DNA of 35,855 nt. It comes from a virus. Taxonomy: Duplodnaviria; Caudoviricetes. Below are positions 9,332 through 35,855 of this stretch, one piece after another (the stretch's first letter is position 1; each line of letters opens with the position of its first letter). Where the stretch lies: the IMG/VR virus record IMGVR_UViG_3300036833_000304, positions 1 to 35,855 of that record. The stretch is one strand, 5' to 3'. Both the position numbers and the translations under genes were made by a program. The notes below the pieces were generated by a model. The model ran no database searches. It had not been told where the DNA came from and saw only the letters and a list, made by a program, of their open reading frames with translations.

Positions 9332-9400
9332 ATCCCGTCGCGAGGCGGGATGCCCTAGACCGCCGCTTGGGCAACGGCCTCCTGCCGCGTCGTGAGACGC
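9332..9400 (+). promoter_or_regulatory. Structured leader of the capsid gene (RNA motif copy 1)
   Basis: Hairpins ATCCCGTC-GCGA-GGCGGGAT (9332-9351) and GCGTC-GTGA-GACGC (9387-9400), both with GNRA loops, flank CGCCGCTTGGGCAACGGCCTC (9361-9381). Confidence 0.65.
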
Positions 9401-32857: not shown

Positions 32858-33109
32858 TTAGAGGCGACGGCGCCGATAAAGCACGCCAAATCCGATCAGG
32901 GCGCTGCCGAGCAGCCCCAGCGAGGTGGGCTCGGGGACGCCAGGGGTCGATGGCGACGGTGCGCTGGTCAGGCAATTGGGCTGGTTGATTATCCGCCCCG
33001 CGCCGAAAGTGTTGCCGCCGCCCTGGACGGCGGCCGGGGTGATGCAGGTAGGCAACTCTTGGATCGCCAGCCCGCTGCCGATGGTGCCGAAGGCGGTGTC
33101 GACCGCGCT
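32858..33109 (-). pseudogene. 5'-truncated PEP-CTERM protein remnant
   Basis: Ends VPEPTSLGLLGSALIGFGVLYRRRRL*; frame open back to TAG at 33110-33112 with no ATG or signal peptide. Confidence 0.72.
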
Positions 33110-33262: not shown

Positions 33263-33880
33263 ATGCCGTTTGTCGAAGGCTATCTCGAGGAGAAGATCAT
33301 CGTCGGACCGGGGCGTCCGACGCACCCGATCGCGCCCGGGGGTCCGCCGCCGGTCATCGACAATTCGCTGCCCGACATCCCGGGGCCGGTCGATCCCGGC
33401 TGGGGCGTGCCGTTGCCGCCGGTTGTCAGTCACCCGATCGCGCCAGGGCCATCGCATCCGATCGTGCTGCCGCCGACCTATCCGGTCGATCCGGACTATG
33501 GTCTGCCGCTGCCGCCGACGGTGTGGCCGCAGCCGCCACGCCCGGTTGATCCCGGTTATGGCGTCCCGGTGCCGATCGACCCGACGCACCCGATCTATCT
33601 GCCGGTCGCCCCGAACAACGATCTGCCGATCCCACCGGGCGGCGTCTATCCGCCGCTGCCACCTTACGTGTCGACCGGGCCGGTAGGGCAACTGATGTGC
33701 TTTGTGTGGATCCCGGGAATCGGGTACAGGTGGACCACGATCGACGTCAATCTAAAGCCGACCCACCCAATCATTCTGCCGCCATCGACAGTGCCGGGCG
33801 TTCCGACGCATCCGATCGCTCCAGGCGGGGAGCCGACCCACCCGATCGATCCAGGCGGACAGCCGACGCCGCGCCGGTAA
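33263..33880 (+). CDS. Proline-rich repeat protein (P[TS]HPI and PVDPxYG repeats)
   Basis: AAGGAG RBS at 33249-33254; 205 aa; FVWIPGIGYRW motif; followed by a strong terminator. Confidence 0.85.
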   Translation: MPFVEGYLEEKIIVGPGRPTHPIAPGGPPPVIDNSLPDIPGPVDPGWGVPLPPVVSHPIAPGPSHPIVLPPTYPVDPDYGLPLPPTVWPQPPRPVDPGYGVPVPIDPTHPIYLPVAPNNDLPIPPGGVYPPLPPYVSTGPVGQLMCFVWIPGIGYRWTTIDVNLKPTHPIILPPSTVPGVPTHPIAPGGEPTHPIDPGGQPTPRR

Positions 33881-33903
33881 AACCTACATACCCGAACTTT
33901 GTC

Positions 33904-33939
33904 GCCGCGCTCTCCTCCGGGAGGGCGCGGCTTTTTTTT
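33904..33939 (+). terminator. Rho-independent terminator
   Basis: 12-bp stem GCCGCGCTCTCC/GGAGGGCGCGGC, C(UCCG)G tetraloop, T8. Confidence 0.93.
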
Positions 33940-33958
33940 CGCTCCGCGCCGCTTAAAT

Positions 33959-34174
33959 CTACCAGCCGCGACCTTTTCCTAGTCGATACACGCGCGCAGC
34001 GGTTACCGGTGTCCGACTGATCTTTCGAGCGGCATCACTGAATGTACCGCCGCTGTCGATAATTCGGCTAATGACCGGATAGTGTCGGCAGCTGTCGATC
34101 AGCATCTCCCGATAGCGATTGACCTCCGCATCGACCCACGCCGCGATTTGCGGTGGCAATTCATTCGAGATCAT
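33959..34174 (-). CDS. Small hypothetical protein, possible C-terminal HTH
   Basis: 71 aa; GGTFSDAARKISRTPVTAARVYR resembles a helix-turn-helix. Confidence 0.5.
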   Translation of the reverse strand: MISNELPPQIAAWVDAEVNRYREMLIDSCRHYPVISRIIDSGGTFSDAARKISRTPVTAARVYRLGKGRGW

Positions 34175-34182
34175 TCCTTTCG

Positions 34183-34255
34183 AACTCGCCCTCTTCAAAA
34201 GAGGGGGAGTTATGGCCCCGGAACGCCGCTTGGGCAACGGCCTCGTGCAGCGCAC
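34183..34255 (+). promoter_or_regulatory. RNA motif copy 2 (same core as the capsid leader)
   Basis: Hairpin 34183-34211, then GCCC, then identical CGCCGCTTGGGCAACGGCCTC (34224-34244), then GTGC-AGC-GCAC. Confidence 0.6.
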
Positions 34256-34336
34256 GGGTTGTCACCCTTCTCCGGACGTTTCGGCTGCACCGGCGCCGGG
34301 GCTCGCTACTCCTGCCCGGCAGCGCACGGGTTGTCA
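34247..34336. repeat. 18-bp perfect direct repeat, two copies
   Basis: GCAGCGCACGGGTTGTCA at 34247-34264 and 34319-34336. Confidence 0.9.
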
Positions 34337-34370
34337 TGTGCGGAGTATGCCAGAGGATACCGGGGGTTTT

Positions 34371-34736
34371 TCACTCTGGGTGTTTCTGGCGGTACAGTCT
34401 GACGACCAGCTCCGCCATCTGCTCCTGCTGCTCTGGAGTGAGGTCTTTGACGTCGCTCCAACTGTCGAGCAGCGAGGCCGCCGTGTTGTAGGGGATATCG
34501 GCTGCCTTGCTCAGCCGGACCACTCGCCGTTGTTCTGCAGTATCGAGATAGGTACCGACGGCGAACGCAACGGAGGCAATGACGAAAAATCCCGCCACCA
34601 CCGCCGCTATCAGTTTGTCTTTGCGTTCTGCATGATAGCGGCGCAACCTGGGCCGCTGCCGCGGCTGCCGTAGGTATCTCGGTCGAGAACCTCTATACCC
34701 GGCTCCGCAAGCTGCGGCGCGAGGATGCAAGTGCAC
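34371..34736 (-). CDS. Hypothetical single-TM protein (start uncertain)
   Basis: Basic stretch, TM LIAAVVAGFFVIASVAFAVG, helical C-terminus; the N-terminal third may not be translated. Confidence 0.5.
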   Translation of the reverse strand: MHLHPRAAACGAGYRGSRPRYLRQPRQRPRLRRYHAERKDKLIAAVVAGFFVIASVAFAVGTYLDTAEQRRVVRLSKAADIPYNTAASLLDSWSDVKDLTPEQQEQMAELVVRLYRQKHPE

Positions 34737-34904
34737 AAATCACCTGAGCAAACGACCGAACGAGATCACCTTCACTGTCCGCTCGGCTGCGAACACCCGC
34801 AGCCATTCCATGCGGGCGAAATGATCCTATGCGGGCTCTGCTTCCACTTCGCCGATCGAGTGACGCCCATGGAGGCATGCACAAAGGAGCTTTGCAGTGG
34901 CTGA
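34725..34904 (+). CDS. 59-aa Cys/His-rich (zinc-ribbon-like) protein, absent from the supplied ORF track
   Basis: MQVHKSPEQTTERDHLHCPLGCEHPQPFHAGEMILCGLCFHFADRVTPMEACTKELCSG; stop overlaps the next start. Confidence 0.65.
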   Translation: MQVHKSPEQTTERDHLHCPLGCEHPQPFHAGEMILCGLCFHFADRVTPMEACTKELCSG

Positions 34905-35340
34905 GCAAACGACCGTCGGCACGCCTCTTTTCGTTGGCCCAATCGAGCGCGGGCAGCTCGGCCGACTGCGGGAGTTTGCCGCTCGCCATCCGGTCGACAT
35001 GATCACGCTGAGAGACCGGCTGCAGACCCGCGCCGGCAAGCGCGTCCACATGCGCCAGATGACCAAGCAGACGGTGTATCTGCCCGAGGCCTACGCGGTG
35101 ACCTTCAGCATCGAGACCGGGCACCGGATCGGTACCTGCCGCCACATGTCGATGTCGGTCGACCGCGAGGGCCGCGTGCCAAACAAGCATGCGGTGTGGA
35201 TGGTCGCTGAGGAGCTAGGCTTTACCGGCGGGCTCGAAGCGTGTGCTGCGATCTGGCCCGAGGAGCTCGAAGGCCACGGCAAGGCGATCAATGTTGTGCA
35301 GGCGGTTGCCGCGTCGTCCGGTACCGGCGGTCGTGCATGA
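34897..35340 (+). CDS. Hypothetical phage protein
   Basis: AAGGAG RBS and GTG start; VTFSIE, CRHMSMSV--GRVP---AV-MVAEELGF. Confidence 0.8.
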   Translation: MAEQTTVGTPLFVGPIERGQLGRLREFAARHPVDMITLRDRLQTRAGKRVHMRQMTKQTVYLPEAYAVTFSIETGHRIGTCRHMSMSVDREGRVPNKHAVWMVAEELGFTGGLEACAAIWPEELEGHGKAINVVQAVAASSGTGGRA

Positions 35341-35367
35341 CCGGAAAGCCACCTGAGCAAACGACCG

Positions 35368-35607
35368 ATGCCCTTTGAAATAATCGAGGCCACCGATGCG
35401 GTGCAGACGCGGGCGAGGAAGTACCGCGATATTTTTGCGCTGGAGGTCGGACAAGCTTTGCGCATTCCGCTTACCGAGTTGTCCTATGAAACCGGCGACC
35501 CGACCGGCACGGTGCGCACCGTGGCGTGGAAATACGGTCGGCGGCTAGGCCGCAAATTCGTCACCCGGCGAGACGAAACAGCGGTGTTCGTCATCCGCCG
35601 AAAATGA
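35368..35607 (+). CDS. Small basic putative DNA-binding protein
   Basis: RKY--F-LEVGQ...YGRRLGRKFVTR-----FVIR pattern of small phage DNA-binding proteins. Confidence 0.72.
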   Translation: MPFEIIEATDAVQTRARKYRDIFALEVGQALRIPLTELSYETGDPTGTVRTVAWKYGRRLGRKFVTRRDETAVFVIRRK

Positions 35608-35705
35608 TGCCGGATTTTATTCATGCACGATAAAAACGCACCCGCGCAAACGACCGATAGGCTTCCGAGCCGGTCGAGAAAACCTAACACGACGGGCCGC
35701 GAACC

Positions 35706-35855
35706 CTATTCTCTTTCCCGGCCGCGCCAGCGGCGGTATGCGGTGCCGAAGCCGAGGAGTGCCGCCGCGAGCAGTCCGAGCGAGCCCGGCTCGGGAACCG
35801 CGGCGCTGGTCGCCTGAAACTGTAGGTTCGACTGCAGCTGCTGGGTTCCTATCGA
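35706..35855 (-). CDS. PEP-CTERM sorting-domain protein (3' end only; runs off the window)
   Basis: ...SIGTQQLQSNLQFQATSAAVPEPGSLGLLAAALLGFGTAYRRWRGRERE*; absent from the supplied ORF track. Confidence 0.85.
   Translation of the reverse strand, partial: SIGTQQLQSNLQFQATSAAVPEPGSLGLLAAALLGFGTAYRRWRGRERE

What the first reader, a model, noticed from the sequence alone, without database searches (positions are those of the whole stretch)
34725..35700. Cassette-like array: successive small ORFs begin with the same in-frame DNA motif (EQTT/AQTT)
Seen: CACCTGAGCAAACGACCGA occurs exactly at 34741 and 35350, with shorter versions CTGAGCAAACGACCG at 34901 and GCAAACGACCGAT at 35646. Each lies within about the first 11 codons of a + strand ORF and in the same frame: MQVHKSPEQTTE (34725), MAEQTTV (34897), MTGKPPEQTTD (35337), MHDKNAPAQTTD (35623). 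What follows each motif is unrelated. Synonymous positions are identical (CAA ACG ACC), which points to a DNA/RNA-level role. Inference: a recombination joint that lets unrelated cassettes be inserted, deleted or swapped in frame behind the previous start signal. Alternatives are a shared operator or translation element like mycobacteriophage start-associated sequences, or an N-terminal sorting tag.
Basis: partly seen in the sequence, partly recalled or inferred. Interest (0 to 1): 0.8.

Follow-up and report, generated by a model that had tools for sequence, protein, structure and literature searches.

The report
Portable gene-start joint in soil phages
An uncultured soil phage and ten other phage or phage-like sequences repeat one short DNA signal inside the first codons of unrelated small genes, and relatives stop matching right at it, so it likely acts as a joint that plugs new genes in behind a ready-made translation start.

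Summary
The repeat is real (0 of 200 simulations). In this window only two of four copies head a clear gene in frame: copy 3 heads a 13-codon ORF (in frame in a relative), copy 4 a doubtful ORF. Ten other phage-like loci carry the same kind of array. There, 24 of 50 gene starts not picked by the search pattern have in-frame ACG-ACC in codons 2-12, against 0 of 33 and 0 of 24 control genes. The core is 9 nt, asymmetric and codon-fixed, and sits where leaderless homologues have their own start codon. Homology between relatives runs up to the core and stops there. The operon usually opens with a resolvase-family gene, mostly lacking its catalytic serine, so it is probably not the enzyme. Best reading (0.5): a portable start module (ribosome site, AUG, short leader holding the upstream stop) that doubles as a gene-swap joint. 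No circles or deletions were seen, and shared stretches are short for annealase recombination. The scan noted similar arrays on other DNA, not this motif. New variant of boundary-sequence/PeSL shuffling.

The parts
34579..34635 (+). 18-codon mini-ORF behind a GGAGG ribosome-site-like stretch, with a degenerate copy of the leader (P-A-T-T, codons ACC ACC)
   Evidence: sequence
34583..34747 (+). Helix-turn-helix remnant without an in-frame start; its stop is the TGA inside motif copy 1; 48% identical to the resolvase-type HTH that opens the array in L002
   Evidence: (weak HTH Pfam hits, below cut-off)
34725..34758 (+). Joint copy 1: ATG, 9-codon leader, core CAA ACG ACC at 34749-34757
   Evidence: loose end at 34758 in run X1
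34725..34904 (+). 59-aa Cys/His-rich protein (CPxxCEHPQPF...CxxC), 74 relatives, function unknown; its stop is the TGA in copy 2
34897..34915 (+). Joint copy 2: GTG, 4-codon leader, core at 34906-34914
   Evidence: X3 contig matches 34689-34912 then diverges
34897..35340 (+). 147-aa protein of an unnamed family (189 homologues); the leader replaces the family's usual start
35337..35378 (+). Joint copy 3 as a 13-codon leader ORF, core at 35358-35366; overlaps the next gene's ATG
   Evidence: in-frame form in P0166
35368..35607 (+). 79-aa protein, weak match to phrog_10287 (unknown function)
35623..35656 (+). Joint copy 4: ATG, 9-codon leader, core at 35647-35655; heads a doubtful 64-codon ORF (to 35817), possibly an orphan leader at the array end
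   Evidence: X5 contig matches 35494-35656 then diverges

Best explanation
The repeat is the fixed 3' end (NAnACGACC) of a short gene-start module that stands in front of most small genes of one operon, and it likely serves as the joint at which genes are gained, lost and swapped. Shown: each module has an ATG/GTG, a 3-10 codon A/C-rich leader that usually contains the upstream gene's stop, and the core in frame; the core lies where leaderless homologues have their own start codon; relatives share sequence up to the core and not beyond; the same gene family occurs with different leaders or none. Inferred: a new gene is joined on by microhomology between the core (AAACGACCG) and a common native start (AAATGACCG-like), so its Met codon is replaced and it is translated, coupled to the upstream gene, from the module's AUG. 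Inferred: later exchange between copies is done by phage annealing proteins (RecT/Erf) rather than by the neighbouring resolvase-like protein. Inferred: the module is kept because it makes any incoming gene expressed at once.
For: Ten other arrays (L002, L155, L020, L211, L161, L165, L173, L180, L206, L212). In-frame exact core in 24 of 50 non-query starts, 1 and 0 of 50 in the other frames; 0 of 33 window structural ORFs and 0 of 24 divergent small genes; 7 of 8 hits among 263 roughly called ORFs of G001-G004 lie in the arrays. Breakpoints: L161/L180 624 nt and window/L002 127 nt alignments end at the motif; L206 carries 49 nt of the resolvase tail plus leader behind another gene; contigs of runs X3 (224 nt, 12 differences) and X5 (163 nt, 5 differences) end at copies 2 and 4, and 4 of 13 listed right-hand loose ends fall on a motif. 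Identity among non-query copies 0.43 left, 0.27 right of the core. Native Met of the two closest leaderless homologues of the 59-aa protein aligns with the ACG codon; one array gene has ATG ACC G at the core position (L155:2392). Upstream stop inside the leader in 57 of 64 starts. RecT in G001 and L206, Erf in G004.
Against: Exact identity between copies of one array is mostly 6-13 nt, at most 20, below the 23-27 bp minimal pairing segment given for Red-beta (PMC3945230). Homologous exchange does not explain why the last 9 nt are far better kept than the rest of the leader. Start regions are not less folded than controls (MFE -12.5 vs -10.7, p 0.11). Nine of 13 listed right-hand loose ends fall elsewhere, several on well-matching pieces (35607, 35639, 34627). 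For the 147-aa family the commonest native Met aligns with the second Thr codon (40 of 119), the first only in 9. No annealase gene in the window, which is 62% complete. Arrays are related by descent, so counts are not independent.
Confidence: 0.5

Rival explanations
1. The core is a sequence-specific regulatory site, bound on the mRNA just behind each start (by a small RNA or protein) or on the DNA (stoperator-like, by the resolvase-derived HTH protein), that co-regulates the whole operon; swapping at it is a by-product of the repeats.
For: Asymmetric, one orientation, confined to one operon. Core kept at nucleotide level while the leader diverges; position -2 is A in 35 of 36 copies though not used for selection. 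A resolvase-family or HTH gene opens 6 of 7 motif-found arrays whose upstream DNA is visible, and 37 of 39 family members end His-X-stop, as the overlap with a leader predicts.
Against: The identical 16-nt copy stands beside three different HTH types (window/L002, L161/L180, L155). L206 has copies without the gene. A DNA operator need not keep frame or sit at the native start. No separate complementary copy turned up in the near-complete G001 and G004 (exact pattern only).
Confidence: 0.2
2. An integron-like capture system: the serine-recombinase-family protein at the head of the operon (or its active ancestor) recombines at the core and fuses captured genes at their own start codon.
For: First copy overlaps the stop of the resolvase-family gene in L155, L161, L180, L002 and the window. 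L155's protein has intact YxRVS and LDRLGR motifs (Pfam Resolvase E 7e-42). Sharp right boundary.
Against: 38 of 39 members of the main family have Gly at the catalytic Ser position and the aligned profile lacks the Arg68/Arg71 equivalents; the window and L002 keep only an HTH. No dyad symmetry (best 0.39 identity), whereas serine-recombinase sites are symmetric 26-30 bp sites (recalled). Direct repeats with a resolvase would delete, not gather, genes (established knowledge).
Confidence: 0.15
3. The leader works as a peptide: an N-terminal x-[QEK]-T-T tag for packaging, secretion or degradation, like the T4 capsid-targeting sequence.
For: Always in frame with a start; hydrophilic leaders. A close relative in run X3 has two synonymous changes inside copy 1's core (34751 A>G, 34757 C>G). 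The codon before the core varies synonymously (CAA/CAG).
Against: 24 of 30 Thr-Thr pairs use ACG-ACC against 14% expected. Single-base variants of the core are 3 synonymous and 9 non-synonymous, near the neutral 1:2. The Mom-like and radical-SAM genes and the window's 79-aa gene start at their own ATG behind an out-of-frame leader. Distance from the N-terminus varies from 3 to 10 residues.
Confidence: 0.1
4. Neutral relic: serial duplication of one gene start, helped by the general A/C-rich bias of N-terminal codons in GC-rich genomes.
For: Thr/Gln/Glu-rich N-termini occur by chance (G003 capsid gene; L227). A scan for the 13-mer near an ATG gave no in-frame excess (26, 43, 22 by frame of 91 sites).
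Against: Absent from control genes of the same phages; same core beside resolvase-like genes only 41-66% alike and in phages with unrelated head genes.
Confidence: 0.05

Closest known systems
PeSL (promoter-early stem-loop) cassettes of T4-type phages (PMC2839356; abstract and passages)
   Same: Repeated start signal in front of small unrelated genes in a variable region; gain and loss of genes mapped to the repeats; crossover can fall near SD/ATG.
   Different: PeSLs are intergenic promoter-terminator units with proven mini-circles. Here the conserved part lies inside the coding sequence behind the AUG, genes overlap, no promoter or terminator is found between them, and no circle was seen.
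Boundary-sequence model of phage mosaicism (passage in PMC3233612; original lambdoid papers not read)
   Same: Short conserved sequence at gene borders proposed as target of homologous recombination.
   Different: Boundary sequences are described as lying between genes; this one is translated, in frame, supplies the first residues and sits at the incoming gene's native start.
Start-associated sequences (SAS) of cluster K mycobacteriophages (PMC3203893; passages)
   Same: Short, asymmetric, one orientation, tied to starts of non-structural genes, function unproven.
   Different: SAS lie 3-7 bp upstream of the start and contain the SD core; they tend to stay with a gene family. This core is downstream at a variable in-frame distance and is not tied to gene family.
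Capsid-targeting sequence of T4 internal proteins (PMC3012670; passages)
   Same: Diverse small proteins sharing only an N-terminal segment.
   Different: CTS is a peptide signal; here codons are fixed, distance from the N-terminus varies, and several genes escape the frame.
Stoperators of cluster A mycobacteriophages (PMC9283540, start of abstract in search listing; passage in PMC3203893)
   Same: Many asymmetric oriented sites and an HTH protein nearby.
   Different: Stoperators are spread over the genome; this core is confined to one operon, is frame-locked and does not co-vary with the HTH.
Multi-site invertase systems such as Min of p15B (recalled; only named in PMC6906374 passages)
   Same: Resolvase/invertase-family gene beside several in-frame sites within ORFs.
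   Different: Those sites are symmetric and inverted and swap homologous tail-fibre ends; here copies are direct, asymmetric, and the enzyme is mostly dead or truncated.

Membership tests
PeSL cassettes | sigma-70-like promoter in each unit | tested here: not met
   0 promoter-like sites in 33800-35855; the scan does not cover other promoter types
PeSL cassettes | stem-loop terminator in each unit, intergenic position | tested here: not met
   No terminator-like site between the array genes; upstream stop lies inside the leader in 57 of 64 starts
PeSL cassettes | gene gain/loss breakpoints at the repeats | tested here: met
PeSL cassettes | mini-circles from recombination between copies | tested here: inconclusive
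   No joints in assembled contigs of 5 runs; contigs drop rare variants
SAS (cluster K) | asymmetric, single orientation, at non-structural gene starts | tested here: met
SAS (cluster K) | lies 3-7 bp upstream of the start and contains the SD core | tested here: not met
   Core is at codons 4-11
Serine-recombinase site-specific system | adjacent recombinase with catalytic Ser and Arg residues | tested here: not met
   Met only in L155; Gly at the Ser position in 38 of 39 homologues; HTH only in the window
Serine-recombinase site-specific system | site with dyad symmetry around a 2-bp core | tested here: not met
   Best dyad score 0.39 over 10 nt; information near 0.1 bit beyond +7
Integron | IntI-type integrase and palindromic attC sites | tested here: not met
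   No dyad; no Rfam match of note. Tyrosine integrases face the array end in G001 and G002 but were not tested for the IntI domain
T4 capsid-targeting sequence | peptide-level conservation at a fixed N-terminal position | tested here: not met
T4 capsid-targeting sequence | tagged proteins are packaged in the virion | not testable with these tools
   No cultured phage or proteome; no match among annotated phage records
Stoperator | repressor binds the sites and blocks elongation | not testable with these tools
   Indirect: same site beside different HTHs

The most novel reading that the evidence does not exclude
These phages carry an undescribed, sequence-specific gene-capture system: a factor (a resolvase-derived protein, or another phage or host enzyme) cuts or pairs at the asymmetric NAnACGACC core and fuses incoming genes at their own start codon, building an integron-like operon of anti-host accessory genes in which each cassette carries the translation start of the next.
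Probability: 0.15. Interest if true: 0.85.

Novelty: new variant of a known kind. Interest (0 to 1): 0.56.

Why it matters
How phages gather small accessory genes with borders that match gene borders is an open question (targeted boundary sequences versus random joining plus selection, PMC3233612 passage). This is a clean case where the border is a 9-nt translated signal at the incoming gene's own start codon, shared by phages with unrelated head genes, so the two models can be tested with two copies on a plasmid. The arrays hold Mom-like, Lar-like, methylase, dNTP-hydrolase-like and acyl-carrier-like genes, so the motif is also a marker for finding candidate counter-defence genes among ORFans.

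Tried and rejected
Global frame test: a 13-mer with an ATG within 25 nt in viral contigs gave 26/43/22 sites by frame (91 distinct sites from 120 loci), so most database hits are chance and the element is rare. Further motif scans gave no new array (0 of 53 loci; 0 of 25). Circles or deletions: no joints in the array in Logan contigs of runs X1-X5; contigs cannot show absence. No RNA holder listed. Chi-like genome-wide hotspot: AAACGACC occurs 5 times in the window, 4 in the array, and mostly in the arrays of G001-G004. Promoter on either strand: none by consensus scan, and spacing to the ATG varies. Structured RNA: one Rfam match at E 0.53, below threshold, on the terminator. Unstructured-start explanation: not supported. 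Cultured representative or host prophage: no match in annotated phages; resolvase-like family not found in 400 sampled genomes of G005's phylum apart from G005 itself. Function of the 147-aa protein: no usable Atlas hit. PHROG start positions as a test of native starts: too few matches. No structure or complex prediction was run.

Full report
Setting. The window is a partial (62% by the record), 64% GC tailed-phage contig with terminase, HK97-type portal, capsid and tail genes on the + strand. The only run holding most of the stretch is labelled soil metagenome (it may be the source sample). The finding lies at the right end, after a terminator at 33904-33931.

Observation. All are in frame with a start 4-9 codons upstream. 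Copy 3's ORF is only 13 codons and the 79-aa gene has its own ATG directly behind the motif; contigs of run X1 agree letter for letter over 34272-35268 and 35270-35537. A member of the same protein cluster, P0166, has a PPEQTT leader in frame with that gene. Copy 4's ORF is doubtful. The TGA in copies 1 and 2 closes the upstream frame; for copy 1 that frame is an HTH remnant.

Relatives. Exact-motif scans gave arrays in 3 of 27 viral loci, one more among 120 loci, and 7 of 54 metagenome loci, 5 of them new; the other hits were single and look like chance. Searching with the gene that opens the arrays added L212 and re-found L072's contig as L211. In all, ten distinct other arrays; two more scans (53 and 25 loci) added none. 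The four longer records have different head genes from the window and from each other where checked; G004 encodes a GcrA homologue, which points to alphaproteobacterial hosts (inference). In G001 and G002 the array faces a tyrosine integrase gene.

Specificity. I listed 64 starts by hand from the rightward chains; 14 were found by the search pattern and are set aside. Of the other 50, 24 have exact in-frame ACGACC in codons 2-12 (36 within one mismatch), against 1 and 0 in the other frames. This list is biased upward: for L206 I entered only the two motif-bearing starts, and three genes behind out-of-frame leaders were represented by their leaders. Controls: 0 of 33 window ORFs left of 33900 (6 of 33 within one mismatch, allowing three starts each), 0 of 24 small genes of the divergent operons, and 1 hit outside the arrays among 263 roughly called ORFs of G001-G004.

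Nucleotide or peptide. Of 30 non-query Thr-Thr pairs 24 are ACG-ACC; Thr usage in the gene bodies predicts 14% (the copies share descent, so the nominal p overstates). Single-base variants are 3 synonymous and 9 non-synonymous. Position -2 is A in 35 of 36 and position -1 never C. Against this, a close relative in run X3 has two synonymous changes in copy 1's core. The site has no dyad and information falls to about 0.1 bit after +7. L212 has a variant (Gln-Thr-Ala, ACG GCC/GCG).

Joint behaviour. L161 and L180 align for 624 nt through the resolvase-like gene and stop at ACGACCG; the window and L002 align for 127 nt and stop in the motif; L206 holds the last 13 codons of that gene plus leader behind a different gene. 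In contigs of other runs, a 224-nt piece ends in copy 2 and a 163-nt piece at the last base of copy 4, each followed by unrelated DNA; 4 of the 13 right-hand loose ends listed fall on a motif, 9 do not, and 43 loose ends were not shown. The leader is not part of the gene families: 0 of 119 listed homologues (of 189) of the 147-aa protein and 2 of 66 anchored homologues (of 74; 8 not anchored) of the 59-aa protein carry it, one of these with another leader type. The fusion point is the native start to within a codon: the two closest leaderless homologues of the 59-aa protein put Met on the ACG codon, while for the 147-aa family the commonest Met position is the next codon. No circle or deletion joint was seen.

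The neighbouring gene. Six of seven motif-found arrays with visible upstream DNA open with a resolvase-family gene or its HTH. The main family (39 homologues) matches gamma-delta and Tn3 resolvase over the full length but has Gly at the catalytic Ser position in 38 of 39; only L155 has an intact-looking enzyme. Thirty-seven of 39 end His-X-stop, which fits the overlap with a leader but also any 8-nt ATG/TGA overlap. The same 16-nt copy stands beside three unlike HTHs, which argues against it being their operator or crossover site.

Mechanism. Shown: anatomy, specificity, breakpoints, independence of leader and gene. Inferred: joining by microhomology between the core and native starts; exchange by annealases, present in G001, G004 and L206; retention because the module gives a start coupled to the upstream gene (stop inside the leader in 57 of 64 starts; coupling at overlaps is shown for other organisms in PMC6728339, passages). 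The weak points are real: exact identity between copies is at most 20 nt, under the 23-27 bp quoted for Red-beta (PMC3945230, passages); start regions are not less folded than controls; and nothing in this model explains why the last 9 nt are kept best. That excess conservation is the unexplained core of the finding and keeps a sequence-specific factor in play (regulatory site 0.2, capture enzyme 0.15).

Comparison and novelty. It works like PeSL and boundary-sequence shuffling but fails PeSL and SAS membership on position and parts. Four literature searches for such an in-frame start motif found no description; the library lacks most subscription papers, and no supplements were read. Earlier notes of this scan describe similar shared-leader arrays on other DNA, one beside a serine recombinase, but none with this motif; they were not checked here. 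Verdict: real, lineage-wide, a new variant of a known kind; interest 0.56.

Noticed in passing
window 32858-33055 (-) and 35706-35855 (-): Two PEP-CTERM sorting-signal ends above the Pfam cut-off flank the proline-rich gene and the array; unusual cargo for a phage, or host DNA at a prophage edge.
   Followed up: no
window 9361-9381 and 34224-34244: A 21-nt hairpin-like direct repeat, one copy just upstream of the major capsid gene, the other left of the array region.
   Followed up: no
window 34246-34263 and 34318-34335: Exact 18-nt direct repeat that on the - strand encodes two successive M/V-T-T-R-A-L stretches; 34265-34301 between them is shared with many other contigs in runs X1, X2, X4.
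   Followed up: no
window 33263-33880: 205-aa proline-rich repeat protein with no Pfam or PHROG match; many divergent relatives in the same runs and a similar gene in G001.
   Followed up: no
L180:467-1138 and 38 homologues (alignment A1): A phage family of resolvase-like proteins that keep fold-level similarity and the HTH but have lost the catalytic serine; role unknown.
   Followed up: partly
L002 and L011, strand opposite the array, about 500-900 nt upstream: Both have a look-alike CCTGAGYAAMCCCCCG just before a leftward ribosome site and ATG.
   Followed up: no
L212 (G005): The array with the Gln-Thr-Ala variant sits on a phage-like contig in a bin labelled Rhodoferax; an IS5-type transposase-like ORF pair interrupts a methylase gene on the divergent side. 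The host label is unverified.
   Followed up: no
window 34627: A contig of run X5 matches up to 34627 and then diverges, at the left edge of the HTH remnant, suggesting a second junction that truncated the HTH gene.
   Followed up: partly
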